From positions 268,318 to 294,372 of the forward strand of contig NW_013657634.1 of the NCBI RefSeq assembly GCF_000142905.1: a stretch of DNA of 26,055 nucleotides. The letters are read 5' to 3'. Origin of the DNA: Thecamonas trahens ATCC 50062. Its lineage: Eukaryota > Protista > Apusomonadida. How positions within the stretch are numbered: the first letter of the stretch is position 1; every line of letters starts with the position of its first letter. Position numbers and translations under genes: made by a program. Shown here in pieces: positions 730 through 17,602 of this stretch. A model generated the notes under the pieces. The model made no database searches. It saw only the letters and a list, made by a program, of their open reading frames with translations, and was not told the origin of the DNA.

Positions 730-955
730 GTACGCAGCCACAGCACCCGCCCTCCCCACACATACGCACACACACAAGCACTACAAGCACTACACGCTAC
801 TCCCTCCCAACCTCCCCCCCTCCTCCCCCCCCTTTTACCCCATTCCCCCCCCTCCCCTCCTTCCCCCCCCCCTCGCCCCGTCCCCCTCCCCCTCCACCTG
901 GCAATGGAAAGAAAGCCCCTCAGCGTTCCTTCCACCCCTTCCCCACCCTCCACAG
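730..955 (+). other. Spliceosomal intron (226 nt, phase 0) in MVP. Donor GTACGC, acceptor CACAG.
   Basis: GT at 730-731 and AG at 954-955. The interior is pyrimidine-rich with a poly-C/CT tract at 820-900 and CA repeats at 760-800. Removing it restores the conserved MVP N-terminus in frame. Confidence 0.75.
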
Positions 956-3523
956 GTCATTCGTGTCCCGCCGTTCTCGTACATCCACATTCTGGATAAC
1001 AATGTCAATGTGACGTCGATTGTGGCAGGGCCGCGGACGTACACTCGCCCGGATCATGTCCGGGTTGTGCTGGGGCCAGAGAAGATGATTACCATTCCGC
1101 CTCGGCACTACTGTGTGGTGGGTAACCCGGTGGTTCGCGATGACGGGGGCAACCCGGTGGTGGACGAATACGGGCAGTACAAGCTGCGGTTTGGCGACGA
1201 GGAGGTCCGCGAGGCGCAGGACCGTTTCCCGCTGTACCCGGGCGAGTCGCTGGTGACAGGCGTGACGCAGATGCCGGTGATCGAGACGAACACGGCGATG
1301 CTGCTGCGGGCCAAGCGCGATTTTAAGCAGACGCTTGCCGACGGCGCGACTGTCGACCGCATTGCCGGTGAGGAGTGGCTTGTTCGTGGGCCGACCGTGT
1401 TCAAGCCGATGGTGGAGGCCGAGTATGTGCGGACGGTGGAGGCGACGGTGGTGCGGCCGAACCAGGCGCTGCGTCTGCGTGCACGGCGCGACTGCATCGA
1501 CGCCAATGGGGTGCAGCGGCGGACGGGCGAGGAGTGGCAGCTGCGGTCCGAGGGCGCATACCTGCCGTCCGTTCACGAGGTGGTTGTCGACGTTGTCTCG
1601 GCGTATGTGCTGACCGAGAAAACGGCGCTGCACCTTCGTGCGACGCGCAACTTTGACGACGCGCTCGGAGTGAGCCGCCGGGCCGGCGAGGAGTGGTTGG
1701 TCACGCTCGCCGACGCCGACCAGTACATCCCGGATGTGTACGAGGCTGTGGTGGGCCAGATCGAGATCACGACGCTGACGAACCGGCAGTACTGCGTGGT
1801 GGTGGACCCTGTCGACGCGAAGACCGGTCGGCAGCGGTTCGGGCACCGCGAGGTGCGGATCGGCGAGCGGTCGTTCTTCCTCAACCCAGGCGAGCGACTC
1901 GAGTCGGGCATCGAGGACGTGTACGTGCTCGGCGAGGACGAGGCGCTGGTGATCCGCGCCAACCAGGCGTTTGACGACGTGGTGGCGAGCCGCGGCGCCG
2001 ACGGGGCGGTGACCGAGACAACGGTGGCGCGGACGCCCGGCGACCTGTGGATGATCATGGGCCCGCGCGAGTACTTTCCGCGGGTCGAGGTCTCTGTTGT
2101 TGACGTCCGGCGGGCGATTCCGCTCGACGACAACGAGGGCATCTACGTCCGCAACATCACGTCTGGCGAGGTGACGGTTGTCTCGGGCGAGAGCTACATG
2201 ATCCGCGAGGACGAGGAGCTGTGGCGCAAGGAGCTGCCGGCCGACGTGGAGGCGCTGCTGGCCAACGCTGCGACGCGCGACCCGCTGGCAGACCGGCACG
2301 CCCGCGGCAACGACGACAACACCTCGGCGTCGGGTCGCGACATGACGCGGGCGGTGACGTTCCGGGTCCCGCACAACGCGGCGGTGCAGATCTACGACTA
2401 CAAGCTCAAGGAGTCGCGGGTGGTGTTTGGCCCGGACCTTGTACTGCTCCGGCCGGACGAGCAGTTTACGCCGATCTGCCTCTCGGGTGACAAGCCGAAG
2501 CGGCCGAACGTGATCAAGTCGCTCGCGCTGCTGCTCGGCCCGGACTTTGCAACAGACATCATCACGGTGGAGACGTCGGACCACGCCCGGCTCTCGCTGC
2601 AGCTCTCGTACAACTGGCACTTTGACGTCGACCGGTCGTCGCCCGAGTCGGTCCGCAAGCTCTTTTCGATCTCGGACTTTGTGGGCGACATGTGCAAGCG
2701 CATCGCGTCTCGGGTCCGTGGCGCTGTGGCGCAGGTTCCGTTTGACGTCTTCCACAAGACCTCGGCGACGCTCATTCCCGCGGCCCTGTTTGGGCAGGAC
2801 GACGAGGGCAACGTCGGCAGCTACTACAAGTTCCCGGGCAACAACCTGGTCATCACCTCGATTGACATCCAGTCGGTGGAGCCGGTCGACCAGCGGACGC
2901 GCGACTCGCTCCAAAAGTCGGTCCAGCTCGCCATCCAGATCACCACCGCCTCGCAGGAGGCGACGGCCAAGCACAACGCCGCCCGCGTCGAGCAGGAGGC
3001 CCGCGGCGCGCTCGAGCGCCAGCGCATCCAGGACGAGGTCCGCGCCGAGGAGTCGCGCAAGGAGCTGCTCTCGCTCAAGGCCCTCTCTGCCGCCGTCGCC
3101 TCGTCCGGCCAGGCCACCGCAGAGGCCAAGGCCCGCGCTGAGGCCGCCAAGATTGCTGGCGAGTCGTCGCTCGAGGAAGCCAAGCTCAAGGTCAAGGCCC
3201 AGGAGATCGAGTCCACCGCCGAGCTTGCCCGCCTCGTCGCCCACCAGAACGCAGAGGTCGACCACATGCGCAAGCTCAACGAGCTCGAGGTCGCCAAGGC
3301 CCGTGCAGAGGCCGACATTGAGACCAAGCGCTGGGTCGAGTCGGTCGCCGCCCTCGGCCCCGAGACCATCCGCGACCTTGCTCGCGCCGGCCCCGAGACC
3401 CAGGTCGCGCTCCTCAAGTCGCTTGGTATCTCGTCGGTCCTCGTCACCGACGGCAACTCGCCCATCAACCTCTTCAACACCGCCTCGGGTCTCATCGGCT
3501 CGGGTGCCGGCGCTGACCAGTAG
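956..3523 (+). CDS. MVP: Major vault protein, exon 2 (vault repeats, shoulder and cap-helix).
   Basis: Near-colinear matches to MVP: PPRHYCVV, FPLYPGE, ALRLRARRDC, TGEEWLV (repeated), NEGIYV, VPHNAAVQIYDY, LLLGPDF, DHARLSLQLSYNWHF, SVEPVDQRTRDSLQKSVQLAIQITT, and a coiled-coil C-terminus ending PINLFNTASGL. Stop TAG at 3521-3523. Confidence 0.92.
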   Translation, partial: VIRVPPFSYIHILDNNVNVTSIVAGPRTYTRPDHVRVVLGPEKMITIPPRHYCVVGNPVVRDDGGNPVVDEYGQYKLRFGDEEVREAQDRFPLYPGESLVTGVTQMPVIETNTAMLLRAKRDFKQTLADGATVDRIAGEEWLVRGPTVFKPMVEAEYVRTVEATVVRPNQALRLRARRDCIDANGVQRRTGEEWQLRSEGAYLPSVHEVVVDVVSAYVLTEKTALHLRATRNFDDALGVSRRAGEEWLVTLADADQYIPDVYEAVVGQIEITTLTNRQYCVVVDPVDAKTGRQRFGHREVRIGERSFFLNPGERLESGIEDVYVLGEDEALVIRANQAFDDVVASRGADGAVTETTVARTPGDLWMIMGPREYFPRVEVSVVDVRRAIPLDDNEGIYVRNITSGEVTVVSGESYMIREDEELWRKELPADVEALLANAATRDPLADRHARGNDDNTSASGRDMTRAVTFRVPHNAAVQIYDYKLKESRVVFGPDLVLLRPDEQFTPICLSGDKPKRPNVIKSLALLLGPDFATDIITVETSDHARLSLQLSYNWHFDVDRSSPESVRKLFSISDFVGDMCKRIASRVRGAVAQVPFDVFHKTSATLIPAALFGQDDEGNVGSYYKFPGNNLVITSIDIQSVEPVDQRTRDSLQKSVQLAIQITTASQEATAKHNAARVEQEARGALERQRIQDEVRAEESRKELLSLKALSAAVASSGQATAEAKARAEAAKIAGESSLEEAKLKVKAQEIESTAELARLVAHQNAEVDHMRKLNELEVAKARAEADIETKRWVESVAALGPETIRDLARAGPETQVALLKSLGISSVLVTDGNSPINLFNTASGLIGSGAGADQ

Positions 3524-3592
3524 ATGCGTCGATTTGCGATTGAATGCTTCCCCCCACCCTTGTCCGACCATCATTGACTTTACTGTCCCAGC

Positions 3593-5988
3593 CTACAGCT
3601 CCTGCTTGCGCGCCGCCATTGCTGCCTGAGCGGCGGCGAGCGCGGCGGCATACGCGTCGTCGGCGTTGGCGCCGTCGTTGGCGGCAGATCCGGCGCTGTC
3701 TGTGGCGTCAAAGTCGTCGAGCTCACCGGCTGCCGCCGCGGCGTCGTCGCCGTCCTCATAGTCAAAGTCATCGAGCGACTCGGCGCCAAGGACGGCCGCG
3801 TCGGGAAGCGGCAGTGTTCGCTCGCGGCCGCGGGCAACCCGGTCGACAAACTGGGCAACAGCATCGGGTTTGAGGGCGCCGACGTAGACCGCGTACCGAG
3901 CCTTGGCCGGATCGAGAACAACCAGGGCCGGGAAGCCAAACTCCAAGTGCAGCGCTTCGTTGAACGACAGGTGGTGCGACTTGAGCCAGACTGGGCGAAC
4001 AGAGGTGGCCTTGGCCTTGCCCGCCGCCGCGCGGAGCAGGCCGCGGTACCGCAGGTTGTCCTGTGCAAACTCGGCACCGGGCGCAGCATCAAGGACCATC
4101 AGCAGGCACATGCCGGACGACTTGTCAAGGCAGGCCTGGGAGAGCCCGTCCTGATCGGCGGCGTAGGCGAGCGGAAGCGGCTTGGCCTTGGCCTTGGCCT
4201 TACTCTTGGTCTTGGTCTTGGCCTTAGCCTTGGTCTGCCCGGGCACCTCGCCGTTCTCGATCATCTCGACCTCGGCCAGGAGCTGGTTCATAAACGCACG
4301 CAGGTGCTTGAGCTTGTACGGGCCCTGATAAGGGATGAACCGGATCTGGGCGCGGTCGCCACCAAACGAGCCGGCGACAAGCAGGGCCGGGAATGACTCG
4401 ATCGAGTCCATGCCGGCGATGAACTGGGTGTTTTCGGCTGGAATCTGGGCAAAAAACAGCTTCCCACGGTAGTCGCGGGCGAGGATCTTGTACATGGTCG
4501 AGACGGTCTCGGCCTCGGAGAACAGAATGACCTTGGGCGTCGCCAGGTTATGCTGGAAAAACGCCGAGGTCGCCTCCTGGGTCTTGAGCTGCATCACATA
4601 GTTGGGCACGAAGCTCAACGCCCACTCGTAGAGCGGCTTGGCCTCGCGCGGCCCATCGTAGCGCACCGGCTTGCGCTTGGCGTTGAGCGGAAAAGCAACG
4701 AGTGCCGACTCGCCGGGCGCAAGGCTGTCCATGCCGTACTTGGCTGCGAGCTTGGGCTCAGCCTCGACATCAACCAGTCCAGTGTGGATCTTGGAGACTA
4801 GCTTGCGCGAGACCTTGTCCCACAGCGGCCTGCCAGCAGGCTCGCTGGTGTAGCTCGCGTGGCCCGCGTCGCGGACAAACTCGATGACCCACGCAATGTC
4901 CTCCACAAGGACTCGCTCGGTAAAAGCCGGCTTGTCGAGGATCTCGTAGCCAGGGCGGGCGGCCTCAGCCTCGGCCTTGGCGCGCGCGGCTTCGGCCTTG
5001 GCCTTGGCAGCCTCGGCCTTGGCGGCCTTGCGCGCCGCGCGCGCCGCGCGCGCCTCTTCCTTGGACAACGGCTTGACGTGTTCAACCTCGAGGCCATGCT
5101 CGGCCGCCACGTCGTCGACAAATGGTGGAGGACACCCAGAGTGATTTTGCCGTCGCGGCCGTCGCGGGCGGCGAGGACGGCGCCACTCACCGGGTCGATG
5201 GCCAGCAGGCCGACCTTTTCCAGCGGCGCACCGCTTCCGCCGTACCGGTGCCACACCGCGGCCATGGCCTCTGGCTTGGAGATACATGCCACACTCACAG
5301 CACCGCGGTGCTTGAATGCCAACATATCGAGAGCAATGAGCGGCTCGTCGCGCAGAAGAAGCACCAGCGGACCGTCAGTCGAATCCTTGGGCAGGGCGTC
5401 CTTGGCCACGACGCCGTCGGCCAGGCCACCGGCGAGCAGCGCAGCCGTATCGGCCTCAAACTGCTCGCGAAGGATGCCCGCCAGCCACTTGGCCACCAGC
5501 GCCTCGGAGAACTGTTCGGCGGTGTAGCGGACGGGCGACTTGTATGCGGCGCCTGCGGCATACGGATTGACCTTGAGCGCGGTAAAGGCATGCAAGGTCG
5601 GCAAAGTGGGAACCTTGTATGCCTTGAGCGTCTTGGCCGATGCCTCTGAATGCCGCACAATGCCGTAGCGGACTCCGATCTTGGCCATTCTTGGCGCAGC
5701 GCGGGTGAGCTGGGCCTCCAGCTGCGGACAGACCTTGCACATCTCGGCATCGCCGACATACAGAACCAGCCAGACCTCTGAATGCGGCGCCTTGATGACC
5801 ATCTCGTCAAAGTTGTCATCATTAAGCTCGACCAGTCCGCCCGCCTTGCCGGCCTTGCCCGCCTTGCCCGCCTTGCCGGCCTTGCCCTCTGCGCACTCGA
5901 CGGTCAGCACCAGGCCGACCAGGCCGACCATGGCCAGCAGGACCAGTACCCCTGCAGCCGTCCTCCGCATTGTCTGTCGTCGTGCCAT
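3593..5988 (-). CDS. ER-luminal protein of the protein disulfide isomerase family with multiple thioredoxin folds. It has a signal peptide, an acidic tail and a C-terminal KQEL. The active sites are noncanonical (CKVC and AGHA). It is read from two ORFs joined by a 1-nt frameshift.
   Basis: The N-terminus has a hydrophobic signal sequence, (GKA)5, and a thioredoxin-like domain with MCKVC (complement 5728-5739). The protein contains RDGK...FVDDVAAEHGLEVEHVKPL, which resembles the PDI b' domain end RDGK..[18 protein letters not shown]. It has VIEFVRDAGHASY...PLWDKV, resembling VEFYAPWCGHCK..PIWDKL but with both cysteines replaced. It has YDGPREAKPLYEWAL, resembling YTGPREADDIVNWL. The tail is acidic and ends in KQEL (complement 3596-3607). 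ORFs 4798-5988 and 3593-5287 are both on the minus strand in different frames. They switch at the AAA run at + 5120-5122. Confidence 0.75.
4181..4236. repeat. Hexanucleotide (CTTGGC)n repeat lying inside the PDI-like CDS, where it encodes KAKAKTKTKSKAKAKAK.
   Basis: Direct tandem repeat. It is in frame with the minus-strand ORF. Confidence 0.85.
5843..5887. repeat. 9-bp tandem repeat (GCCTTGCCS)x5 encoding (GKA)5 just after the signal peptide of the PDI-like protein.
   Basis: Perfect 9-mer periodicity, in frame. Confidence 0.85.
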
Positions 5989-6513: not shown

Positions 6514-8379
6514 ATGGGTCGGTACTACCGGGTATGGAGCCCAAGCAGTGGGACGTTCCGCAAGGCACTGCTTGTGGCGCTTGTGATGGCTGTCTTCATG
6601 GCACCCATTCCCGACTGTGACGAGGTGTTCAACTACTGGGAGCCGCTCCACTACCTCATCCATGGCACCGGTCTGCAGACATGGGAGTACGCCTCGCAGT
6701 ATGCCCTCCGCTCGTATGCTTATCTCCTGGCTCATGCGCCACCTCTGGCTCTTCCTCTGGTGCTTAATGCTACTATTGGCTTGGGATCGCTCGCTGATGG
6801 CCGTCACTACCCTTCGGCTCCTGTGGCTGACTCGGCATGGGCTCCCGTCTGGACACGCTCGCTCCCGGGTGATGCCAACGTCAAGCTCCTGCAGTTCTTT
6901 GCCCTCCGCCTGGTTCTTGTCATTCTTGCCATATACGTTTTCTCGGCATTGTACTATGTCCTCGCGCAGCGGCTGCGTTTCTCCCACATTCCGATCTTTG
7001 TCCTCGTCTTTATGGCCCTCGCCCCGGGCCTCTTCCTCGCTGTCCCGGCCTTTGTTCCCTCATCAACTGCCATGGTCGCGCTCACTGCCGCATACGCCGC
7101 GTTTCTGGATCGCCGCGAGGCGCTAGCGGTGGCGCTTGTCGGTGTCGCCGGCCTTGTTGCCTGGCCCTTTGCCGCTTGGGCCGGCGTTCCCATCGCGCTG
7201 CACATGATGTTCCTCGGCCCGTCGCCGCTACCGATTGTCCGCCGCGTCGTCAAGTTTGTCGGCTTTGCTCTCCTCGCCGGCACCGTGCTCATCGGCCTCC
7301 TTCTTGCCATTGACTCGTCGTTCTACGGGTCTCCGGTCCTCGCCCCGCTCAACATTGTGATGTACAACGTGCTCGCCACCGCTGCCTCTGGCGGCGGCTC
7401 GGAGCTCTACGGTACCGAGCCGTGGCACTACTATATCCGCAACGGCATCGTCAACTTTAACCTTGCATTTGTCCTCGGCCTGCTTGGTCCGTTCCTCACT
7501 GTCCTCCCCGGCTGGCTCAGCCACTACAACCTTGTCTGCGGCCCGTCCCCGGCGTTCCGCTCTCGGCTCGCGGCGTACTTGTGGTCGATCTGGGCCTGGC
7601 TCGGCCTCATGCTCGCCCAGCCGCACAAGGAGGAGCGGTTCCTCTACCCGATCTATCCCGCGCTCTGTGTGTCGGCAGCTGTGACGCTTGCCTGCGGCGC
7701 ATCGCTCCTCGACAGTGTGCTGGCCAAGTGCAGCGGCGACGGTGACGCCGGCAGCAGCGCCGATGACGACGACGGCAAGGCTGCGTTTGTCACCCGCGCC
7801 TCGCTCACTTCGACGCTGGTGTGGATGATCTTGGCGCTCTTTGCCCTGCTCGCTGTCTCGCGGTCGGTGGTGATGGTGGTGGGCTACGGTGCGCCGCTCG
7901 AGGTCTACACCCATCTTGCCAACACCGAGTTTGATCCGGCGTTCCGCGCCGCGCTTCCGGTCAACGCCTCGGTCGCCGTCTGCGTCGGCAAAGAGTGGTA
8001 CCGCTTCCCGTCCCACTTTTTCTTCCCGGACGCCCGTTTCGCGCTCCATTTTATCGACGGTGGCTTTGGCGGCCTTCTCCCGCAGGCGTACGCGCCGTAT
8101 CCGGACGGGCTCAGCCGGCACGTGCCAGCCATGAACGATCGCAACGCCGCCGAGCCTTCTCGGTACGTTGCCGTCGACAACTGTGCCTACGTGGTCGATC
8201 TAGTCCTCTCGCCCGCCGACGACCTCGCTGCCCGCCAGCCAGAGACCTGGACCACTATTCTCGAGGTTCCGTTCCTCGACGCCGACGCCACGCCGGCATG
8301 GGCGCGCGCGTTCTATATCCCGTTCGTCGGGCCCCGCGCTATGGCATGGAAGCCGTACACCGTCTTCCGTCACAAGTGA
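6514..8379 (+). CDS. ALG9: ALG9 family alpha-1,2-mannosyltransferase (dolichyl-P-Man:Man6/8GlcNAc2-PP-Dol), glycosyltransferase family 22.
   Basis: DCDEVFNYWEPLHYL (6613-6657) matches the ALG9 signature DCDETFNYWEPTHYL. Other matches are TWEYASQYALRSYAYLL, LYGTEPWHYYIRNGIVNFN, QPHKEERFLYPIYP, VCVGKEWYRFPS, EPSRYV..VDL and RAFYIPF. It is a multi-pass TM protein of 621 aa, similar in size to human ALG9. Confidence 0.92.
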   Translation: MGRYYRVWSPSSGTFRKALLVALVMAVFMAPIPDCDEVFNYWEPLHYLIHGTGLQTWEYASQYALRSYAYLLAHAPPLALPLVLNATIGLGSLADGRHYPSAPVADSAWAPVWTRSLPGDANVKLLQFFALRLVLVILAIYVFSALYYVLAQRLRFSHIPIFVLVFMALAPGLFLAVPAFVPSSTAMVALTAAYAAFLDRREALAVALVGVAGLVAWPFAAWAGVPIALHMMFLGPSPLPIVRRVVKFVGFALLAGTVLIGLLLAIDSSFYGSPVLAPLNIVMYNVLATAASGGGSELYGTEPWHYYIRNGIVNFNLAFVLGLLGPFLTVLPGWLSHYNLVCGPSPAFRSRLAAYLWSIWAWLGLMLAQPHKEERFLYPIYPALCVSAAVTLACGASLLDSVLAKCSGDGDAGSSADDDDGKAAFVTRASLTSTLVWMILALFALLAVSRSVVMVVGYGAPLEVYTHLANTEFDPAFRAALPVNASVAVCVGKEWYRFPSHFFFPDARFALHFIDGGFGGLLPQAYAPYPDGLSRHVPAMNDRNAAEPSRYVAVDNCAYVVDLVLSPADDLAARQPETWTTILEVPFLDADATPAWARAFYIPFVGPRAMAWKPYTVFRHK

Positions 8380-8396
8380 ACGCGCGGTGCTTACCG

Positions 8397-9824
8397 TCAG
8401 ACCCAGACATGCAGGCCGGCCGACGACGCCGTGGCCAGCGCCACGTTGCGGGCGGTGAGCGCGAGCACGTCTTCGCCGCGGGCCACCCTGCCCTTGGCCG
8501 TCTTGGGAATGCCGTACGTCGCAGTCGGCGTGGTCACCTCGCCCGCCAGCCAGCTCGCCATCGGCACAGCCGCCACCGTTCCGTCGTACGAGACGCTTGC
8601 AAGGCTGAACGCGTTGCCCGCCAGCGATGAGACCGCCGAGCTGTGGTACCGCGCGTTGACCGTCGGCCCGGCGTGCGGCGCCCGCGTGTCGATGGCGTAC
8701 ACGGCATTGTGCGGACGGCCGACCGAAACAACCAGCGTTTGACCATCGCCGCTCGACGAGAGAATCGGCAGCTCGAGTGCGTGGACGCCTGCGGCGAGGG
8801 CCAGCTCGAGCGCAGGCTCGCGCGCTGGTGCGCGCAGGTCCCAGCACCGCACGTACTTGTCGAGCGAGCCCGAGTAGAGGACCGATGGTGCCGCCGGATC
8901 AAAGGCCAGTGCGCGGACCGAGCCGCGATGCGGAAGCGTCCGCAGAGCGGCGTCGGGCGAGTTGACGTCAAACACCAGCGCCGAGTTGTCGTCCTGCCCA
9001 CCGCCCGACACGACCCATGGCCGCTGCGCACACGCCGCGAGCGCAAAGACCGAGTCGGCATGGCCGGTCAGAGTCGCCACCGGCGACGCAGTCTCCAGAT
9101 CAAACACTAGTGAGCCGCCCAGCTGGCGACCGAGGCCGAGCGCCACCAGACTCGGCGCGCCCGGCAGGAGACACATCGAGTTGACGGCGTCGCGGTCGGC
9201 AACCTGGACTGCGGTCGGGACGAGCTCGACTGGCGAGCGCCGCCCACGGTCGCCACGGGTACTGCTCCGATTACTTAGCGGTGTGGTGAGGAGCACGCCG
9301 CGCTTGCATCCGGCGAGCAGTACGTCCATTGCCGCGTGATGGGCCAGGCAGCGGGCGTGGACATCGTCAGCCAGCGCCACTCGCTCCATGGATGCGGCGG
9401 CGTCCGGACGCGCCAGCCGGCTCAGCACCCGCATGGTAAGCCCGTACCGAACAAACCACTCGCTCTCGCGAGAGTCGCTGTCCTCGTCACGCCCATCAGA
9501 GCCGCCACTCGTCACGCATCCGTCGCCCATCAGCGGCGCAAGCTCGCAGGCGTACCGTCGTCGCCACAGTAGCGAGTCGGTAGCGAGCCGGCGCCAGTCG
9601 CGCGAGGCGCAGGAGAGGGCAAGGAGGTCACGAGTCGGCAGAAACTCGCAGATGTACAGCCTTAGCTCGTCAGGAAACCGGTCTATCATTGTGGTGGTTG
9701 GAAACGACGTCCAGCCGCTCTTGGGGCTCTCGGTGTGGCGACGAGTGGCTCTGTCCGTGGATGGGATCGGCCGGCGGAGGCGGGCGACAGGGATCCGAGC
9801 CGATGCAGCTATCGCCATAGTCAT
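8397..9824 (-). CDS. F-box / WD40-repeat protein.
   Basis: An F-box-like region FPDELRLYICEFLPTRDLLALSCASRDWRRLATDSLLW sits near the N-terminus. WD-like blades follow, for example VFALAA..RPWVVSGGGQD and GSVRALAFDP...LYSGSLDKYVRCWDLR. The start could instead be the in-frame ATG at complement 9687-9689 (MIDRFPDEL). The stop lies 17 bp from the ALG9 stop. Confidence 0.7.
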   Translation of the reverse strand: MTMAIAASARIPVARLRRPIPSTDRATRRHTESPKSGWTSFPTTTMIDRFPDELRLYICEFLPTRDLLALSCASRDWRRLATDSLLWRRRYACELAPLMGDGCVTSGGSDGRDEDSDSRESEWFVRYGLTMRVLSRLARPDAAASMERVALADDVHARCLAHHAAMDVLLAGCKRGVLLTTPLSNRSSTRGDRGRRSPVELVPTAVQVADRDAVNSMCLLPGAPSLVALGLGRQLGGSLVFDLETASPVATLTGHADSVFALAACAQRPWVVSGGGQDDNSALVFDVNSPDAALRTLPHRGSVRALAFDPAAPSVLYSGSLDKYVRCWDLRAPAREPALELALAAGVHALELPILSSSGDGQTLVVSVGRPHNAVYAIDTRAPHAGPTVNARYHSSAVSSLAGNAFSLASVSYDGTVAAVPMASWLAGEVTTPTATYGIPKTAKGRVARGEDVLALTARNVALATASSAGLHVWV

Positions 9825-10208: not shown

Positions 10209-13200
10209 ATGTCGACCCTCCAGATAGGTGACATGTGCTGGGTGGAGAACCTGGCAGCAGGTACTAGCGGAGGAGAGCAGGCCTCCCATGGCCACCACCC
10301 GTCGCGAGTGGCAGGCAAGGTCCTCGCCGTCTCGGACTCGATGGTGACGGTGGCCCCAGAATGGGGCGAGCTCTGTCCGACCTGTGCCCTCAAGCCGGAG
10401 CATACGCCTGCTCATCGTCCGGCAAAGGTCAACGTTCCGCTGGGAAACTCGGCAGACGCGGGCCAGCTCGCCGTGAGTGTCATGGACACGTCCAACGCCG
10501 AGGGGAGGGCAGACATGATGGAGCTGGCTGATCTGGCGGTGGGCGAGCTGATGTACAACCTGAGGTTGAGGTACAAGGCCCAGCCCATGCAGTTCTACAC
10601 ATATGTCGGGGACATCCTGGTTGTCGTCAATCCCATGGCGGACATGGGCGTCTCTGGCGAGGAGACAAAGGCTACGTACGCCGGCCTGCCGTTCCGCGAT
10701 GCGAGCGCCCCGCCGCACATCTACGCCGTCGCCGAGGCTGCCCACAAGGCGCTCGCCGAGACGGCCGCTCCGCAGGTCATCGTCATCTCGGGCGAGTCTG
10801 GCGCTGGCAAGACATACGCCACCAACGACGTGCTCGACTTTCTGGCCTACCGCGGCAGCGGGTGCGACCCAGCTCCTGCTCCCGGTCCTAACGCTGGCGC
10901 TGCTCCTTCTCCGCCCGGGGCGGAGATTGTGGCCAAGATCCGGGCTATCTCGGGCGTCATTGAAGCGCTGGGCAATGCCAAGACGTCGCGGAACCACAAC
11001 TCGTCGCGGTTTGGCAAGCTCGTCAAGGTCCAGTTCGACGAGGCCGGGGCCATCGAGGGCGCCGCGCTGCAGACGTACCTACTGGAAAAGTCGCGGATTG
11101 TCGACCAACAGCCCGGTGAGCGCAACTACCACATCTTCTACCTCATGTTCCAGTTCCTCGACCGCGGTGAGCGGTCGGCGCGCGGTCTCTCGGACTCGGT
11201 CGCGGACTACCCGTACCTCGTCGGCTCGCACGGCAAGAACGCCAAGTCATGGCAGTACATGCCTAGCGATCCGTCGGCGCCGCAAGCCGGGCTCGAGCCC
11301 ATGGCCGACGCCAAGCGGTGGGAGGCGTTCATCGACGCTGTTGTCACGCTTAACCTCGAGGACGATCTCTCGTGCGTGTGGGACACGCTCGCCGCCATCC
11401 TGCACCTCGGCACGCTGACTTTTGAGGAGCACGCTGGCTCTTCGACCGGCTTTTGCACCGTCTCGCCGCCTGGAGTTGTCTCGCGCATTGCAGGCCTCCT
11501 CGCTGTCGACGCCGACGCTCTGGCCACCAATCTGCTCTCGTGCGAGGTCGTCAACATGCGCCGTGCGTACCGACCCGACAAGGCCAAGCAGACCGCCGAC
11601 GCGCTGGCCAAACTCCTTTACGCCTCGCTCTTTGACGTCATCATCGAGCACATCAACGCGTCGATCAAAACCGGCTTCACCCGCCGGTGGATCGGCGTCC
11701 TCGACATCTTTGGCTTTGAGTCGTTCCAGTCGCTGCCGGACAAGCACGGCGTGCCCGACACCGCCAACCGGTTTGAGCAGCTCTGCATCAACCTCACCAA
11801 CGAGCGCCTGCAGCGGTTCTTCTACGACCAGCTCATTCCCAAGCAGCTCGCCCACTACGCCGACCACGGGCTCGACGTCGACGCCATCGAGTACGACGAC
11901 AACACCCTCTGTGTCAACCTCATCATGGAGGGCCGCAAGTCGCTCTTTGGCGCCCTCAACAACGCCACCAAGGAGGCTGCCACCCTTCCGGCCTTCCGCA
12001 ACAACCCGGAGCTTGCCGAGCGGCGCTGGGTCGAGACCATCAAGTCGACGTACAAAGGCGGCAAAGGCCGTCTCGCGCCCTCGACCGTAGTCCGCAAGTC
12101 CTCGCCCGACGAATTTGTCGGCTGGTTTGATGACAAGCTTGACTCGCGGGCCCACACCCAGTTTGCCGTCCACCACTACGCTGAAACCGTGTGGTACACC
12201 GTCGACGGGTGCGTCGAGAAAAACGCCGACAAGATTGCCCCCGAGCTTGTCACGCTTGTCTCGTCCTCATCGGCCGCCTTTGTCGCCGGCCTTTTTGATC
12301 CGGACCGCCTCGAGCTCAACACCTCGGTTGCCGACAAGTTTGCCGAGCAGCTGCGGGCACTCGTCTCGCCGGCGTCGTGGAACGTGCCTGGCCACCCGTC
12401 GGGCATGCTTGACCTTGCAGCGGAGCCTTTTTTCGTTCGCTGCGTCAAGCCAATCTGCTCGCGGGTGCCCGGCATGCCGCGTGCGCCGCTCTCCAACCAC
12501 AAGGTGCTCGACCAGCTGCGGTCCGCCGGTATGTACGCGGTCATCCAGATGCGGCTTGCCGGCTATGCGTCTGAAGTGGACAAGGCCCAGTTTGTCGAGA
12601 CCTACACCGAGCTTGTTGACGACATGGCAGCGTTCAACTCACTCTCGCTTGACAACCAAGTCCGCTCCATTTGTGCATCCGTCGTCGCCTCTACTCAGCA
12701 CGACTTGACAAGCGAATCCGGCATGGCGCCGTACCAGATCGGCAACTCAAACCTGGTCTTCCTCAAGGACGCCATGAACTACGCCCTGCGCGACGCGCTC
12801 GCTGCGGCTCGCGCGGCGCGTGCGGCCAAGCAAGCGCTGGCGCTCTCGCATTTTGCGGCGCTTTTCTCGATGTGGAGCGTCCGCCAGTCGATGCCGCGGC
12901 TGGTGCAGGTCTACGAACAGAACCAGGAACGCCTCGAGTTTATCCGGACCCGCATCGAGGGTGGTGCAAGCGAAGCAGAGGCCAAGGCCGCATGGGACGC
13001 CGAGCTCGCCACCCGCGCCGCGGCCATGGAGGCCGAATACAAGCTCGAGCATTTTATCCCGCTGCAAAAGGCCGCCGCCGCCGAGCCAGTCGACAAGCTC
13101 GACGCCGCCATTGCCAACATGCTCAAGGACGAGCCAGCCGGTGAGGCGCGCGCGGCTCTCGAGGCTAGGCGCAAAGCGCTGAAGGCATCGGCCAAGGCGG

Positions 13201-14846
13201 TTAACGCCGCGCTTGCTGCGCTCGAGGCCGACGTGTACAACGCCGAGGCCGAGACCGCTGCCGCAGACGCCATTGCTGACCTGGACGCAGTTGTTCTCGC
13301 CGAGGAGGCCGCGTATGCAGAGGACGTCAAGCGGCGCGAGGCGGCCGCCGCTGCTGCTGCTGAAGCCGCGTACATTGCCACGCATGTGACGTCGGTGGAG
13401 ACTGCGGCGAACGCGGTGCCGTTCGCCAAGGTCAAGGCCGCACTCACGGCGTTTGGCAAGCGGCATGCCAACATCCTCGGCAAACGCGAGAACCTTGAGA
13501 GCGCACTCCATGCTCATGGGGCCTCGCTCGACGACGCTCGCGCAGCGCTTGAGGCGCGGCTGGACGAGTTGCGGGCAAGCCCGCATTCAGACGAAGTGCA
13601 AGCCGGGGTGGCGACGGCGCTATCGGCGCTCGAGGTGCTCGTTGGCGGCGTCCACGAGTTCCTGCGGCTGATGGAGGAGCGCGTGGCGATGGCAGCGGCG
13701 GCGGAGGAAGCCAAGGAGCGCAAGCGCGAGGCGCGGCGCAGAAAGCGTGAGGCGCGCGAGGCACGGAAGCGCAAGCTGCTGGAGGCGCGGCAGGCCATGC
13801 TCTCGGCGCAGGAGCGAGTGGCCGCGGAGCGGGCGGCGGAGCGCAAGCGGCAGGAGGAGGCCAAAAAGCGGGCGGTGAAGCTGCTCAAGAAGAAGCAGAA
13901 GCGGCGGCTGCGGTGGTTCGAGACAGCAAGCGTGGCCATGGACGGCCTGCGTGTCTTGTTCCACCATGCCGAGGCCACGGTGCGGTACCTTGGCCCGCTG
14001 CCGTCGGCATCGGTCAACCTCCTCACGGCGCCCTACTACATCGGGCTGGAGATGCCGTATCCGTCGGATTTGTTCAACTCGGGTGACTACGAGGGTACGC
14101 AGCTGTTCGAGTGCTCGCCGGAGCATGGCATGTTTGTGGCGCAGGACTTGGTCTCGGTCCTGGTCGCCAGCGACGAGCTTCGCGCCGGCGAGCGGCATCT
14201 GCAGGTCGGCGACCGGGTGTGGCGGCGGAACCATGTTCCGCTGCAGACCGGCGTCATCATGTACTACGGTGAGACTCACTTTGACGAGGGCCCGTTTGTG
14301 GGCATCGCCCTCGACCAGGCCGGCTCTGGCACCAACTCGGGCCGGGTCCACGGCTTCAAGTACTTTAAGTGCGCCAAGGACTCGGGCCTGTTTCTGCGGC
14401 CAGAAGAGCTCGAGCGGATAGAGCCGTGGTCGCACTCTGTCGTCAAGGAGCGAACCAACGAGTACATGATTCTTAACGACATTTATCTCGACGACGACGA
14501 GTACTCGGAGTACGATGGTGACGAGGAGGATGGGACCAGCTCGCGGGCCAGCTCACGGCCGGCGTCGGGTGACGACTCGTCGTCGGGCGCGGTCTCCGAG
14601 ACCGTTCTAGACGCCATGGATCCCGACGAGCTCTACGCGCTTGCCGGTGGCGATGCCATGCTGACCGACGGCGCGTCTGAGCCGCTCTCGTCGGGAGTGC
14701 GGCTCAAAAAGTCACGGCTCTCGCGGCGCGGATCGGGCGCCGGTCGGTCGATGTCGATGCGCAATGTCGAGACAGCGCGGAGTGGACATCTAGTGCCGCC
14801 GATGCAGCGGGCGGCGTCGTCGCGAAACCGGATGCGCCGACGGTAG
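10209..14846 (+). CDS. Myosin heavy chain (motor domain, ~600 aa coiled-coil/charged tail, C-terminal CAP-Gly domain).
   Basis: Motor motifs are the P-loop GESGAGKT (10791-10814), switch I NSSRFGKLV, switch II LDIFGFE, LRLRYKA, and an HIFY-type relay. The tail is rich in A/E/K/R heptads. The C-terminus carries a CAP-Gly signature LQVGDRVWRR..GVIMYYGETHFDEGPFVGIALDQAGSGTNSGRVHGFKYFKCAKDSGLFLRPEEL (~14196-14430). The start is taken as ATG 10209 (MSTLQIGD), after the minisatellite. The upstream part of the ORF track entry 9885-14846 is a translated repeat. Confidence 0.9.
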   Translation: MSTLQIGDMCWVENLAAGTSGGEQASHGHHPSRVAGKVLAVSDSMVTVAPEWGELCPTCALKPEHTPAHRPAKVNVPLGNSADAGQLAVSVMDTSNAEGRADMMELADLAVGELMYNLRLRYKAQPMQFYTYVGDILVVVNPMADMGVSGEETKATYAGLPFRDASAPPHIYAVAEAAHKALAETAAPQVIVISGESGAGKTYATNDVLDFLAYRGSGCDPAPAPGPNAGAAPSPPGAEIVAKIRAISGVIEALGNAKTSRNHNSSRFGKLVKVQFDEAGAIEGAALQTYLLEKSRIVDQQPGERNYHIFYLMFQFLDRGERSARGLSDSVADYPYLVGSHGKNAKSWQYMPSDPSAPQAGLEPMADAKRWEAFIDAVVTLNLEDDLSCVWDTLAAILHLGTLTFEEHAGSSTGFCTVSPPGVVSRIAGLLAVDADALATNLLSCEVVNMRRAYRPDKAKQTADALAKLLYASLFDVIIEHINASIKTGFTRRWIGVLDIFGFESFQSLPDKHGVPDTANRFEQLCINLTNERLQRFFYDQLIPKQLAHYADHGLDVDAIEYDDNTLCVNLIMEGRKSLFGALNNATKEAATLPAFRNNPELAERRWVETIKSTYKGGKGRLAPSTVVRKSSPDEFVGWFDDKLDSRAHTQFAVHHYAETVWYTVDGCVEKNADKIAPELVTLVSSSSAAFVAGLFDPDRLELNTSVADKFAEQLRALVSPASWNVPGHPSGMLDLAAEPFFVRCVKPICSRVPGMPRAPLSNHKVLDQLRSAGMYAVIQMRLAGYASEVDKAQFVETYTELVDDMAAFNSLSLDNQVRSICASVVASTQHDLTSESGMAPYQIGNSNLVFLKDAMNYALRDALAAARAARAAKQALALSHFAALFSMWSVRQSMPRLVQVYEQNQERLEFIRTRIEGGASEAEAKAAWDAELATRAAAMEAEYKLEHFIPLQKAAAAEPVDKLDAAIANMLKDEPAGEARAALEARRKALKASAKAVNAALAALEADVYNAEAETAAADAIADLDAVVLAEEAAYAEDVKRREAAAAAAAEAAYIATHVTSVETAANAVPFAKVKAALTAFGKRHANILGKRENLESALHAHGASLDDARAALEARLDELRASPHSDEVQAGVATALSALEVLVGGVHEFLRLMEERVAMAAAAEEAKERKREARRRKREAREARKRKLLEARQAMLSAQERVAAERAAERKRQEEAKKRAVKLLKKKQKRRLRWFETASVAMDGLRVLFHHAEATVRYLGPLPSASVNLLTAPYYIGLEMPYPSDLFNSGDYEGTQLFECSPEHGMFVAQDLVSVLVASDELRAGERHLQVGDRVWRRNHVPLQTGVIMYYGETHFDEGPFVGIALDQAGSGTNSGRVHGFKYFKCAKDSGLFLRPEELERIEPWSHSVVKERTNEYMILNDIYLDDDEYSEYDGDEEDGTSSRASSRPASGDDSSSGAVSETVLDAMDPDELYALAGGDAMLTDGASEPLSSGVRLKKSRLSRRGSGAGRSMSMRNVETARSGHLVPPMQRAASSRNRMRRR

Positions 14847-14849
14847 CAG

Positions 14850-17602
14850 TTAGGGCGTAAAACAGGTCTCCAGATGAAAGTGGTAGTCGACGAGCGACGT
14901 GGCCGAGACGGCAGTGGTGGCGGCGTAGACGGCCGAGGCGAGCGAGGAGTTACCAGAGAAGAAAACGCCGACAGCGGCGTTGGGCCGGGCGAGAAGGCCC
15001 GAGTCGGAGACCACATCCTCGGCGTCGAGGTAGGAAAAAGCCGGGCCATGTCGGGCCGACCGCGGATGACGGTAAAAGGGAGCGCAAGAAAGACGTCGCG
15101 GGTGACAAAGAGGCGAACGTCGAGGGTGAGATCAGGCTCGTGGATAGAGGTGTAGAACTGGGACTCGAGCACCTCGAGCACGTCCTGGAACCAACGGAAC
15201 GAGTCGAGGTCGCGGCAGACCCACCAAAAGTGGAGATGCTTGAGTGGGAGAGCGAGACCGTGCTGGAGCCGGAAAATGATGTCGGAGAGGACGGCGGCGT
15301 AGGGAGTGACCCCGATGCCGGACGCGATGAGGACGGCGCGGTGGTAGGAGAGATACGGGTGCGGGTCCGAGCCAAACGGGCCCGCGACGTAGAGCCGGAG
15401 CGATGACGCCGGTGACGTCGGGTCCTCGATGCCGGACGCGGAGGACTCGGCGAGCGCGTAGACCTGACGGGTCCAAGAGTCGCGGGCGCCGACAGCCTTA
15501 AAATACACGTGCACGTGCTCCATAAGCGGCGAGGAGGCGACCGAGAACGGATGCCACTGCAGCTTGGAAATGCTTGGTAGGTGGAGGTGGACGTAGTCGC
15601 CGAGGGCGAGGGCGCGCGTCATGCGCGCCGACTTGACAAAGGCAACATGGACGACCGATCCCGGGAGCGCGTCGAGCGCGACAATGCGGGCGTCGGCGAG
15701 CGCGTGTGGCGCCGAGATGCCGCGCGCAATGAGGTAGAGAAGATAGCCCGGTGCGATGTAGTAGAGGGTACGGAGGGTGGTGGGATGCGCGACGAGGAGG
15801 AGCGGGAGGACGAGCGCGAGCTGATGTGGGTAGTAAAAGACCTCAAAGGCGATGCGGCGGATCTTCGGGTGTGCAAGCGGGACAATGGCGAGCATCAGAA
15901 GGAGGAGAAGGATGCCGGAGAGGCCGAGCCAGGTCGAGAAGACAATGGTGAGCGGCGAGTTGTGGGTGCGAAAGGCGGCGAGCGGGGTGCCCGGCGCAAA
16001 GGCCAGGTCGCGATCAGCCTGCGATGCAGCGGCAGTGCGAAAGGCGTTGACAACGTGAGCAGCGGTGTGGCCGAGAGCGCAGGCAAAGGTGGCCACTCCG
16101 CCGAGCCGATGGAAGAGCATCATGTGCTCCTGTGAGGGCCGGAGCCAGAGCGTGGCGGAGCGAGGCATGCGCGGCAGAAAGACTCGAACGACGGTGGTGT
16201 AGGTGGCGAGGCAGACCGGGAGAAAGAGAAACGCGACGCCGACGCGGATACCCGCGGCAAAGACCTTGGCGGCAACGAGCGAGGCACCAAGAATGCGGTG
16301 TGCTGCGTAGGAGCGGGCGATACGCGCGATGTAGACTGACTCGAGGGTGACAGCAAGGCAGATGAGGGCAAGCCAGAGGCAAAACGCTGGGTCGAGCTTG
16401 GCATGCATGCGGGCGGTGGAAGCGGCGGCGGCGACCGAGGCCCGGAGCGATGCGAGGTGCGAGGTCGCCGGCGCCGCGCTGGATGCCGAGCCGGAGATGC
16501 CGTAAGAGGCGAGTCGGGCGAGAACGCCTGCGGGCAGGTCTGTGGCAGTGGCGAGTGAGCTCCACTGAGCCGGCTCGAGGGCGAGAACGTCGCCGACGGT
16601 GGCGAGCTCCTGGAGCGCAAACTGTGCCATCCAGAGTTTCGCGCGCTCACGGCCGACGTTGGGTGAGAGCTTGAGATCCTCGGCGACAGCGAGGAGGGCG
16701 GCCAGAAGCGGTGCGTCTGGTGAGAAGGCGACTGTCGAGTATGTGCGGTGGGTTGTGAGCCAGGATCGCCACTGGCGAGTGGTGGGTGTAGCGTGGATGT
16801 GGAGGGTGAGCTCGGTGGCATGCTCGAGCTCGCCCCAGGTAAAGGCGGAGATGAAGCGCGGCCAGTCAAGGACGATGCTGCCGACCGGACGGGTCGGCGA
16901 GGCCGGCGACGAAAACGAGATGGCGCGCGAGCGCGAGAGGCTCGGGGAGAAGGCCTCGTTGTCGGCGGCGACCGAGGAGGCGAGCCACGAGCTGTGGATC
17001 TCGGCGACGAGATCGTCGCCAGCGAGGGCAGCGCCGCCGGGAGCGGCAAGAATGAGATGCGGGATGTTGCAGAGGGTGGCGAGGGAGAGCTCAGCGCCGG
17101 CTGTGGTGGAGCCGGCTGCCATGAGGAAGACAAACATGAGGCGGAGCTTCTGTGGCGCCTCGCCAGCAAAGGCCGAGGCAAAAGCGAGAAACTCAAGGAG
17201 TGGGACGGAGGGAGCGCGGGACGAGAGGCGCTTCTTCTTGGAGGGCGGTGGCGGGCGAGCGAGAATGGCGAAGAGGAGATCGACGGTGGAGGAGGCCGCA
17301 TCCCAGCCCGTCAGTCGGGCAAAGGCACGGCGGGAGAGGCGGTAGGTGAGGTTCGATGCGATGGCAAAGACGTGGGCCCAGCGCTTGATGAGCGAGTCGG
17401 GGCGGAAGACCCAGGCAGTGGCGACGCGAGTCATACCGCGGCCAAAGCGGAGGATGCGGCGACGCATGCCGGTGATAGGACAGACGCCCGTGGAGACGCC
17501 GAGCATGGCCTTTGCCGACTCGAGGGCGATGGATGCGTTCTGGAGGCTCCGCCAGTAGCTCGCAGCCGAGGCATCAAGTAGAGGCCTCTGCGCCGTGAGC
17601 AT
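14850..17602 (-). CDS. NADPH oxidase / ferric reductase (NOX/FRE) family protein with a ~400-aa N-terminal extension of unknown function. The C-terminal ~60 aa are read in a -1 frame relative to the long ORF.
   Basis: A TM region carries heme-ligand histidines (HRLGG..GHTAAHVVN, YYPHQLAL). FAD-binding HPFS is at about + 15545-15560. NADPH-binding GIGVTPY is at about + 15291-15311, with CRDLDSF. GRPDMARLF resembles NOX GRPNWDNEF. In the other frame, AAVGVFFSGNSSLASAV...DYHFHLETCFTP-stop matches the NOX2 C-terminus [15 protein letters not shown]...HFIFNKENF with the same spacing. The frames switch at the A5 run at + 15035-15039. The stop (TAA, complement 14850-14852) lies 3 bp from the myosin stop. 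Confidence 0.85.

What the first reader, a model, noticed from the sequence alone, without database searches (positions are those of the whole stretch)
8380..8396. Extreme tail-to-tail packing: convergent stop codons 3, 17, 49 and 69 bp apart
The four convergent stop-codon pairs lie 69 bp (3524-3592), 17 bp (8380-8396), 3 bp (14847-14849) and 49 bp (24667-24715) apart. These gaps are too short to hold two non-overlapping 3' UTRs with poly(A) signals. So the mRNAs must overlap antisense at their 3' ends, or terminate inside the partner's coding region. Divergent spacers are also short (384-525 bp), except one of 1.4 kb. This alternating head-to-head and tail-to-tail pattern with near-zero convergent gaps is a notable property of this genome. 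It affects antisense regulation and termination.
Basis: seen in the sequence. Interest (0 to 1): 0.5.

Follow-up and report, generated by a model that had tools for sequence, protein, structure and literature searches.

The report
Tightly packed tail-to-tail genes, Thecamonas
In this stretch of the gene-dense nuclear genome of the protist Thecamonas trahens, four pairs of genes that point at each other really do end only 3 to 69 bases apart; this is the usual squeezing of promoter-free spacers, probably helped by polyadenylation signals that sit on or just after the stop codons.

Summary
The window is Thecamonas trahens ATCC 50062 nuclear DNA. Three ORFs are 97-100% identical to NCBI proteins from one 304,656-bp contig.

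All four convergent stop-codon pairs lie exactly where stated, with gaps of 69, 17, 3 and 49 bp. I checked the eight gene ends; the ninth end counted below (DUF726) belongs to the single same-strand pair:
- Five of the eight are backed by homology, a C-terminal motif or the public gene models.
- All eight keep high GC3 to the stop.
- The F-box/WD ORF is a real, annotated gene.

The pattern is the known signature of compact eukaryotic genomes, where tail-to-tail spacers are much shorter than tandem or head-to-head ones. It is ordinary in kind, though extreme in degree.

New here: GTAAA-type motifs (Giardia-like WGURAA, algal GUAA/UAAA) overlap or closely follow 5-6 of 9 stop codons, against 2% of 901 control stops. 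This suggests "dual-use" stop/poly(A) signals and very short 3' UTRs.
- The 49- and 69-bp gaps could then hold two separate 3' ends.
- The 3- and 17-bp gaps cannot, so those transcripts must run into the partner's coding sequence.

There is no hairpin or terminator in the gaps, no transcript data, and no evidence of antisense regulation.

The parts
712..3523 (+). Major vault protein gene. ATG at 712, 226-nt GTACGC..AG intron at 730-955, stop TAG at 3521-3523.
   Evidence: Pfam Vault and MVP_shoulder domains. The C-terminus aligns to human and rat MVP up to 4 residues before the stop. Intron.
3524..3592 (.). Convergent gap 1, 69 bp, 52% GC.
   Evidence: No significant RNA structure (z -0.27 and -0.46).
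3579..3584 (-). AGTAAA, 9 nt after the PDI-like stop. Candidate poly(A) signal.
3593..5988 (-). PDI-like thioredoxin-fold gene with a signal peptide. It ends ...RKQEL (KDEL-like). A probable 92-nt GTGAGT..AG intron lies at 5099-5190.
   Evidence: Pfam Thioredox_PDIA6_C. Sequence.
6514..8379 (+). ALG9 mannosyltransferase gene, stop TGA at 8377-8379. AGTGAA at 8375-8380 overlaps the stop.
   Evidence: 100% identical to T. trahens ALG9 over 528 aa. The ORF is homologous to other ALG9s to its last residues.
8380..8396 (.). Convergent gap 2, 17 bp (ACGCGCGGTGCTTACCG). This is the finding's coordinates.
8390..8395 (-). GGTAAG, 2 nt after the F-box/WD stop. A weaker GTAA-type candidate signal.
8397..9824 (-). 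F-box/WD40 gene. The annotated start is M46 at 9689. Stop TGA at 8397-8399.
   Evidence: Pfam F-box, F-box-like and WD40. P0121 = AMSG_09425, 430 aa, with the same C-terminus.
10209..14846 (+). Myosin with two CAP-Gly domains, stop TAG at 14844-14846.
   Evidence: Pfam Myosin_head and CAP_GLY. Database protein P0136 (1527 aa) is 100% identical and ends at the same residue.
14847..14849 (.). Convergent gap 3, 3 bp (CAG).
14856..14861 (+). CGTAAA, 10 nt after the myosin stop. It lies antisense within the last codons (Cys-Phe-Thr) of the NADPH-oxidase gene.
14850..17602 (-). NADPH oxidase / ferric reductase gene, stop TAA at 14850-14852, C-terminus ...YHFHLETCFTP. There is a 1-nt frame break at the A5 run 15035-15039.
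   Evidence: Pfam Ferric_reduct, FAD_binding_8 and NAD_binding_6. Frames. The NCBI model P0131 has the same C-terminus.
18980..21160 (+). DUF726 gene. TGTAAA at 21156-21161 overlaps the stop. It is followed by a 461-bp same-strand spacer.
   Evidence: Pfam DUF726. Motif.
21622..24666 (+). Repeat-rich protein gene of unknown family. CGTAAA at 24662-24667 overlaps the stop TAA.
   Evidence: 1014-codon ORF with a coding GC1/2/3 pattern of 0.71/0.52/0.76. Four copies of a 237-bp repeat. No homology support for its end.
24667..24715 (.). Convergent gap 4, 49 bp.
   Evidence: No significant structure.
24716..25990 (-). La protein gene with an in-frame GTACGC intron. AGTAAA at 24715-24720 overlaps the stop TAA.
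   Evidence: Pfam La, RRM_1, RRM_3 and xRRM. Sequence.

Best explanation
The window is a gene-dense piece of the Thecamonas trahens nuclear genome, about one gene per 2.7 kb. Spacers between convergent genes carry no promoters, so under compaction they have shrunk to almost nothing.

This is workable because 3'-end formation here probably uses a short GTAAA-type signal (WGURAA/GUAA-like) rather than AAUAAA. That signal lies on the stop codon itself ('dual use') or within about 11 nt of it, which would give very short 3' UTRs.

Consequences for the four pairs:
- In the 49- and 69-bp gaps, each gene's signal sits at its own end of the gap, so the two 3' ends may just fit or overlap slightly.
- In the 17- and 3-bp gaps, the signal and/or cleavage site of one gene lies inside the partner's last codons. 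An example is the myosin's CGTAAA, antisense to the oxidase's Cys-Phe-Thr codons. Mature mRNAs there must overlap antisense by roughly 10-40 nt.

Shown: organism, gene identities, stop positions, spacer size order, motif enrichment.
Inferred: that the motif is the poly(A) signal, the UTR lengths, and the overlap.
For: Organism:
- Searches give 97-100% identity to NCBI T. trahens proteins, all from one 304,656-bp contig.

Gene ends:
- ALG9 is homologous to other ALG9s to its end.
- MVP aligns to solved MVP structures to within 4 residues of the stop.
- The PDI-like gene ends in KQEL.
- The public F-box/WD and NADPH-oxidase models, and the 100%-identical database myosin P0136 (unnamed), end at the same stops.
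- GC3 is 0.73-0.93 in the last 30 codons of all nine gene ends.

Size order of spacers:
- 3, 17, 49 and 69 bp against 384-1377 bp.
- The same order is reported as the signature of compact genomes: Theileria tail-to-tail medians are 126-203 bp, and the pattern also holds in fungi (PMC4761415).

Motif:
- GTAAA occurs 15 times in 52 kb of both strands. Five of these lie at -3 to +11 of the 9 sense stops.
- It is the top 5-mer in an unbiased scan, p about 1e-9 to 5e-8.
- It is present at 5/9 real stops against 18/901 other in-frame stops (Fisher 8e-7). G-stop-A context is 5/9 against 50/901 (7e-5).
- WGTRAA occurs only 7 times, 4 of them at gene ends.
- AATAAA is absent from the window.
- In a relative's contig, 3 of 4 GTAAA lie +7 to +37 after stops.

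Precedent:
- Dual-use stop codons and WGURAA in Giardia, UGUAA in green algae, and UAAA/GUAA in red algae (PMC11529991; PMC6413133).
Against: - No transcript or poly(A)-site data could be reached, so UTR lengths, cleavage sites and overlap are all inferred.
- The motif rests on only 9 gene ends, and it was noticed before it was tested.
- MVP, ALG9 (only as AGTGAA) and the oxidase lack GTAAA. The oxidase has no GTAA-type motif within 240 nt.
- The absence of sense-strand GTAAA inside coding sequence is fully explained by codon usage (expected 1.1), so it adds nothing.
- The oxidase carries a frame break and could be a pseudogene, which would remove the conflict at the 3-bp gap.
- The end of the repeat protein has no homology support.
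Confidence: 0.6

Rival explanations
1. Long, extensively overlapping 3' ends. The GTAAA motif is not the signal. Transcripts terminate far inside or beyond the convergent neighbour, as reported for microsporidia and nucleomorphs, giving antisense overlaps of hundreds of bases.
For: Overlapping transcription is documented in compacted genomes (Williams et al. 2005, cited in PMC3629993; Theileria). Three of the 9 genes lack a clear GTAAA. No terminator-like structure is present in the gaps.
Against: GTAAA-type motifs are strongly and position-specifically enriched at real stops compared with 901 control stops, and the same tendency appears in a relative. There is no positive evidence for read-through.
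Confidence: 0.2
2. Selected antisense regulation. The near-zero convergent gaps are maintained because 3' antisense overlap or polymerase collision co-regulates the partner genes (cis-natural antisense pairs).
For: Overlap is geometrically unavoidable at the 3- and 17-bp gaps. Conserved synteny of overlapping opposite-strand pairs has been argued for Theileria and Plasmodium.
Against: The partners are functionally unrelated: ALG9 with F-box/WD, myosin with oxidase, MVP with PDI-like, and repeat protein with La. In the only relative available, ALG9's convergent neighbour is a different gene, 118 bp away. Compaction alone explains the size order.
Confidence: 0.12
3. Artefact of gene calling. Some ORFs are not genes, or their true 3' ends lie elsewhere because of terminal introns or read-through of GC-rich sequence, so the gaps are really larger.
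For: - The NCBI ALG9 model ends 176 bp earlier, through a 58-nt intron.
- The oxidase needs a frame correction.
- Long spurious ORFs do exist in this GC-rich DNA, such as the 884-aa ORF antisense to MVP.
Against: - The un-spliced ALG9 frame is conserved to its last residues in 7 other ALG9 proteins.
- The F-box/WD and oxidase models and the myosin database entry P0136 share my stops.
- MVP and the PDI-like gene have conserved or functional C-termini.
- GC3 stays high to every stop.
Confidence: 0.05
4. A dedicated bidirectional terminator element, such as a hairpin or shared palindrome, sits in the gaps and stops both polymerases.
For: None found. The idea has precedent in yeast bidirectional termination zones about 120 bp wide (bioRxiv 10.1101/2022.11.02.514956).
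Against: Folding of all four junctions on both strands gives z-scores of -0.46 to +2.06 against shuffles. Only short, imperfect inverted repeats are present. Gaps of 3 and 17 bp cannot hold an element. No motif is shared among the gaps other than the GTAAA-type signals.
Confidence: 0.03

Closest known systems
Spacer size order in compact eukaryotic genomes (Theileria, fungi, Plasmodium): head-to-head longest, then head-to-tail, then tail-to-tail
   Same: The ordering is the same. Tail-to-tail spacers are the shortest because they hold no promoter (PMC4761415).
   Different: The values here (3-69 bp, median 33 bp between stop codons) are well below the Theileria tail-to-tail medians of 126-203 bp. 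The organism is a free-living flagellate with 65% GC. Only one window was sampled.
Overlapping transcription in microsporidia and nucleomorphs (Williams et al. 2005; Corradi et al. 2008)
   Same: Gene packing is so tight that transcripts must extend into neighbouring genes.
   Different: In those systems overlap was shown with transcripts, and often involves read-through of whole neighbouring genes. Here overlap is only inferred, and is probably short.
Dual-use stop codon / WGURAA poly(A) signal of Giardia and Spironucleus (PMC9014877, PMC11529991)
   Same: AGTAAA, TGTAAA and AGTGAA hexamers overlap three stop codons and follow a fourth by 9 nt. They are rare elsewhere in the window. AATAAA is absent.
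   Different: The lineage is unrelated (Apusomonadida, Obazoa). CGTAAA and GGTAAG variants are also seen, which do not fit WGURAA. Cleavage sites are unknown, and there are only 9 genes.
UGUAA (green algae) and UAAA/GUAA (red algae) poly(A) signals (PMC6413133; cited in PMC11529991)
   Same: A short G/U-containing signal sharing the GUAA/UAAA core.
   Different: Not shown to be used in T. trahens. The preferred flanking bases differ.
Yeast bidirectional termination zones at convergent genes (bioRxiv 10.1101/2022.11.02.514956)
   Same: Convergent genes share a single short termination region.
   Different: The yeast zones are about 120 bp wide, AT-rich (UAUAUA) and nucleosome-depleted. Here the gaps are 3-69 bp, 52-71% GC, with no such motif.

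Membership tests
Compact-genome tail-to-tail spacer compaction | Tail-to-tail intergenic distances are systematically shorter than head-to-tail and head-to-head distances. | tested here: met
   3, 17, 49 and 69 bp against 461 bp (tandem) and 384-1377 bp (divergent). Separation is complete (1/126).. One window only.
Compact-genome tail-to-tail spacer compaction | The flanking ORFs are real genes with correctly placed stops. | tested here: met
   Pfam, C-terminal homology, matching public models and a 100%-identical database entry, and GC3. The ends of the repeat protein and La rest on ORF and GC3 evidence only.
Overlapping convergent transcripts (cis-natural antisense pairs) | Mature transcripts from opposite strands share sequence. 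| not testable with these tools
   No transcript data were reachable. Exact-protein look-ups found no contigs. Overlap follows only by geometry, and only for the 3- and 17-bp gaps.
Overlapping convergent transcripts (cis-natural antisense pairs) | The gene pair is conserved in relatives, as expected for a regulatory unit. | tested here: inconclusive
   In the one distant relative (ALG9 44% identical), ALG9 also has a convergent neighbour, but it is a different gene and lies 118 bp away.
Dual-use stop codon / WGURAA-type poly(A) signal | The signal hexamer overlaps the stop codon or lies just downstream of it. | tested here: met
   AGTGAA (ALG9), TGTAAA (DUF726) and AGTAAA (La) overlap stops. 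AGTAAA lies 9 nt after the PDI-like stop. CGTAAA overlaps the repeat-protein stop and lies 10 nt after the myosin stop.
Dual-use stop codon / WGURAA-type poly(A) signal | The motif is enriched at gene 3' ends relative to background. | tested here: met
   5/9 against 18/901 control stops, Fisher 8e-7. Top 5-mer of 1024. 4 of 7 WGTRAA lie at gene ends. The sample is small and the motif was partly chosen after inspection.
Dual-use stop codon / WGURAA-type poly(A) signal | Cleavage and polyadenylation occur about 10-25 nt downstream of the motif, giving ultrashort 3' UTRs. | not testable with these tools
   Needs poly(A)-site mapping.
Dual-use stop codon / WGURAA-type poly(A) signal | The motif is depleted from the sense strand of coding sequence beyond what codon usage predicts. 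| tested here: not met
   0 observed against 1.1 expected for GTAAA (P=0.31), and 0 against 2.3 for WGTRAA (P=0.095), from codon shuffles.
Structured or bidirectional terminator element | A stable hairpin or shared palindrome in the gap. | tested here: not met
   z-scores of -0.46 to +2.06. Only weak inverted repeats.

The most novel reading that the evidence does not exclude
Thecamonas trahens, an apusomonad and sister lineage of animals and fungi, does not use AAUAAA. It uses a G-containing GUAAA/WGURAA-like poly(A) signal that frequently doubles as, or abuts, the stop codon. In the tightest convergent pairs this signal is encoded antisense within the neighbour's coding sequence. That would be an independent origin of the Giardia/algal-type 'dual-use' strategy in Obazoa, tied to genome compaction in a GC-rich genome.
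Probability: 0.4. Interest if true: 0.45.

Novelty: new member of a known kind. Interest (0 to 1): 0.3.

Why it matters
- **For annotation.** It shows that T. trahens genes really abut tail to tail. Two public gene models in this window (ALG9 and the NADPH oxidase) contain probably spurious short introns, and the ALG9 one misplaces the 3' end.
- **For biology.** If the GTAAA-type signal is confirmed, it would add a lineage close to animals and fungi to the protists that use non-AAUAAA, stop-overlapping poly(A) signals. That bears on how poly(A) signals evolve under genome compaction and high GC.
- **For the packing itself.** It is expected for a compact genome and does not open a new question.

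Tried and rejected
- **Hairpins or palindromes in the gaps.** None found.
- **tRNA or known RNA families in the window.** None found.
- **Canonical AATAAA.** Absent from the window.
- **Depletion of GTAAA from sense coding sequence as supporting evidence.** Rejected, because codon usage explains it.
- **Rare-codon constraint on the oxidase's last codons from the antisense myosin signal.** Rejected, because TTT is not rare here (127 against 100 TTC).
- **Fetching the T. trahens contig or transcripts by exact protein look-up.** Nothing is on record.
- **Conservation of the ALG9 and F-box/WD pair in a relative.** The neighbour there is a different gene.
- **A hidden gene in the 1.4-kb divergent spacer.** No ORF has the coding GC3 signature.
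- **PDB alignment of the oxidase C-terminus.** The alignment stopped short of the end. The end is supported instead by the NCBI model and a paralogue.
- **Literature searches for T. trahens poly(A) signals, UTRs or intergenic statistics.** Nothing relevant found.

Full report
**Origin of the window**

The window is about 65% GC and carries long ORFs on alternating strands. Three of them match NCBI proteins of Thecamonas trahens ATCC 50062, all from one 304,656-bp contig:
- ALG9, 100% identical over 528 aa.
- F-box/WD protein AMSG_09425, 100% identical.
- NADPH oxidase, 97% identical.

This is therefore nuclear DNA of an apusomonad flagellate.

**Gene map** (Pfam; reading frames)

| Gene | Strand | Coordinates | Notes |
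|---|---|---|---|
| Unnamed gene, exon 1 | - | about 1-100 | Runs off the left end of the window |
| Major vault protein (MVP) | + | 712-3523 | One 226-nt intron |
| PDI-like ER protein | - | 3593-5988 | |
| ALG9 | + | 6514-8379 | |
| F-box/WD40 | - | 8397-9824 | |
| Myosin with two CAP-Gly domains | + | 10209-14846 | |
| NADPH oxidase | - | 14850-17602 | |
| DUF726 | + | 18980-21160 | |
| Repeat-rich protein | + | 21622-24666 | |
| La protein | - | 24716-25990 | |

No tRNA gene or Rfam family is present.

**Checking the observation**

Reading the sequence directly confirms all eight stop codons and the four gaps exactly as reported: 69 bp (3524-3592), 17 bp (8380-8396), 3 bp (14847-14849) and 49 bp (24667-24715). 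The other spacers are:
- 525 bp, divergent.
- 384 bp, divergent (519 bp with the annotated F-box start).
- 1377 bp, divergent.
- About 610 bp, divergent, at the left end of the window.
- 461 bp, the single same-strand pair (DUF726 followed by the repeat protein).

The pattern is therefore not strictly alternating. All four convergent gaps are shorter than all five other spacers (1 chance in 126). One tandem pair out of nine has a probability of about 0.02 under random orientation. These are small-sample figures from one window.

**Are the gene ends right?**

- **ALG9.** The uninterrupted ORF stays homologous to seven other ALG9 proteins through MNDxN..EPSRY..C.Y.VDL..PFLDA..RAFYIPF to its final residues. 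The NCBI model instead splices out a 58-nt GT..AG segment (8097-8154) and stops in another frame near 8203. That intron removes conserved sequence and is probably spurious.
- **F-box/WD.** It has F-box and WD40 Pfam hits, and the public model has the identical C-terminus.
- **Myosin.** Database protein P0136 (1527 aa; that library carries no names or annotation) is 100% identical over the last 400 residues and ends at the same residue.
- **NADPH oxidase.**
  - The main ORF loses frame at an A5 run (15035-15039).
  - The 54-codon terminal ORF encodes ...VGVFFSGNSS...YHFHLETCFTP. From my own knowledge, this resembles the canonical NOX C-terminus.
  - The NCBI model has the same C-terminus.
  - The model bridges the frame break with a 53-nt 'intron' (15018-15070). 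That segment removes a GRP motif which the paralogue P0132 retains.
  - A homopolymer sequencing error or a pseudogene is therefore more likely than a real intron.
- **MVP.** It aligns to solved human and rat MVP structures up to four residues before the stop.
- **All nine gene ends (the eight convergent ones plus DUF726).** They keep the coding signature, with GC3 of 0.73-0.93 in the last 30 codons.
- **Weakest cases.** The ends of the repeat protein and La rest only on ORF and GC3 evidence.

**What is in the gaps**

No stable hairpin or shared palindrome is present. Fold z-scores range from -0.46 to +2.06 on both strands, and only weak inverted repeats were found. AATAAA does not occur anywhere in the window.

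GTAAA-type motifs, in contrast, cluster at gene ends.
- GTAAA occurs 15 times on both strands of the window. Five of those lie between -3 and +11 of the nine sense-strand stop codons.
- It is the top-ranked 5-mer in an unbiased scan of -5 to +20/30/45 (p about 1e-9 to 5e-8 before correction for 1024 tests).
- To control for the bias from TAA stop codons, I compared real stops with the 901 other in-frame stops in all six frames:

| Feature | Real stops | Control stops | Fisher p |
|---|---|---|---|
| GTAAA nearby | 5/9 | 18/901 | 8e-7 |
| GTAA nearby | 6/9 | 44/901 | 1.5e-6 |
| G before and A after the stop | 5/9 | 50/901 | 7e-5 |

(All.)

- The Giardia-type hexamer WGTRAA occurs only 7 times in 52 kb. 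Three overlap stops: AGTGAA at ALG9, TGTAAA at DUF726 and AGTAAA at La. One lies 9 nt after the PDI-like stop.
- CGTAAA overlaps the repeat-protein stop. It also lies 10 nt after the myosin stop, inside the oxidase's last codons.
- On a 2.5-kb contig from a distant relative (ALG9 44% identical), 3 of 4 GTAAA lie 7-37 nt after stops, and the third gene there has AATAAA.
- MVP and the oxidase lack the motif.
- The absence of the motif from sense coding sequence is explained by codon usage, so it is not evidence.

**Interpretation**

The size order, with tail-to-tail spacers far shorter than tandem or head-to-head ones, is the documented signature of compact eukaryotic genomes, because only upstream regions need space for promoters (PMC4761415). 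Overlapping transcription is known from microsporidia and nucleomorphs (Williams et al. 2005, cited in PMC3629993). [quoted passage not shown] They give 3' UTRs with a median of about 11 nt in Giardia (PMC11529991). UGUAA and UAAA/GUAA signals are known in algae.

The most economical reading is ordinary compaction, made workable by stop-proximal GTAAA-type signals and very short 3' UTRs.
- With such signals, the 49- and 69-bp gaps could hold two separate 3' ends.
- The 17- and 3-bp gaps cannot. There the signal and/or cleavage site of one gene must lie within the partner's coding sequence, and the mRNAs should overlap by tens of bases.

Nothing here supports a regulatory antisense role. The partner genes are functionally unrelated, and the one relative available has a different convergent neighbour next to ALG9.

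**Novelty and score**

Searches found no paper describing T. trahens 3' ends, poly(A) signals or intergenic statistics. The phenomenon is a new instance of a known kind. The packing itself is unsurprising. The candidate non-AAUAAA dual-use signal in a lineage sister to animals and fungi is the only modestly novel lead, and it rests on nine genes.

- Interest: 0.3.
- Decisive test: poly(A)-site mapping, plus a genome-wide k-mer and distance survey on the public assembly.

Noticed in passing
window 8097-8154 (+): The NCBI T. trahens ALG9 model (543 aa) splices out a 58-nt GT..AG segment and ends in another frame near 8203. The unspliced ORF is conserved with other ALG9s for a further 93 residues, to the stop at 8379. 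The intron is probably spurious and the public protein is truncated.
   Followed up: yes
window 15018-15070 (-), A5 run 15035-15039: The NADPH-oxidase reading frame breaks by 1 nt at a homopolymer. The public model bridges the break with a 53-nt 'intron' that deletes VIRGRPDMARLFSYLDAE, although a T. trahens paralogue keeps the GRP motif. This is either an assembly homopolymer error or a pseudogene.
   Followed up: partly
window 730-955 (+); La intron about 25610-25860 (-); left edge about 1-25 (-): The three clearest introns all begin with GTACGC: the MVP intron, the La intron, and the one after exon 1 of the gene that runs off the left edge. The two doubtful annotated introns begin GTATCC and GTCATC. 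The PDI-like gene has a plausible 92-nt GTGAGT..AG intron at 5099-5190.
   Followed up: partly
window 9829-10110: A 17-bp minisatellite (AGTCGTTGCCCATCATC, 16.6 copies, 95% matches) fills most of the divergent spacer between the F-box/WD and myosin genes.
   Followed up: no
window 17603-18979: This divergent spacer is unusually long at 1.4 kb. It has no ORF with a coding GC3 signature, no tRNA gene and no Rfam hit. It contains a long G-run and GGTGATG-type repeats near 18790-18900. It could hold an unannotated non-coding RNA, or simply a large promoter region.
   Followed up: partly
window 22206-23117 (+): The 1014-aa protein of unknown family contains about 4 near-identical copies (97%) of a 237-bp (79-aa) repeat with the motif RPQMRKWRQGTSGFKTSPALEKLKARQEAMRKQR. 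There is no Pfam match.
   Followed up: no
window 920-3574 (-): An 884-codon ORF lies antisense to the vault-protein gene. It is a reminder that very long spurious ORFs arise in this 65% GC DNA.
   Followed up: yes
window 13644-14846 (+): The myosin carries two CAP-Gly domains in its tail, an unusual architecture. Proteins of 1175-1520 aa that match over CAP-Gly plus flanking tail sequence exist in the protein library (P0143, P0153, P0161), but I did not check that they contain a myosin motor.
   Followed up: no
window 100-161, 6145-6184, about 760-950: Simple repeats ((GTGGTGTG)8, (ACAT)10, CA-rich and long C/T-rich tracts) occupy the divergent promoter and 5' regions.
   Followed up: no
L001 2261-2378: In a metagenomic relative (ALG9 44% identical, about 60% GC), ALG9 also has a convergent neighbour, only 118 bp away. 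That gene ends in a membrane-protein-like tail and is not an F-box/WD gene. AGTAAAGTAAAG follows its stop.
   Followed up: partly
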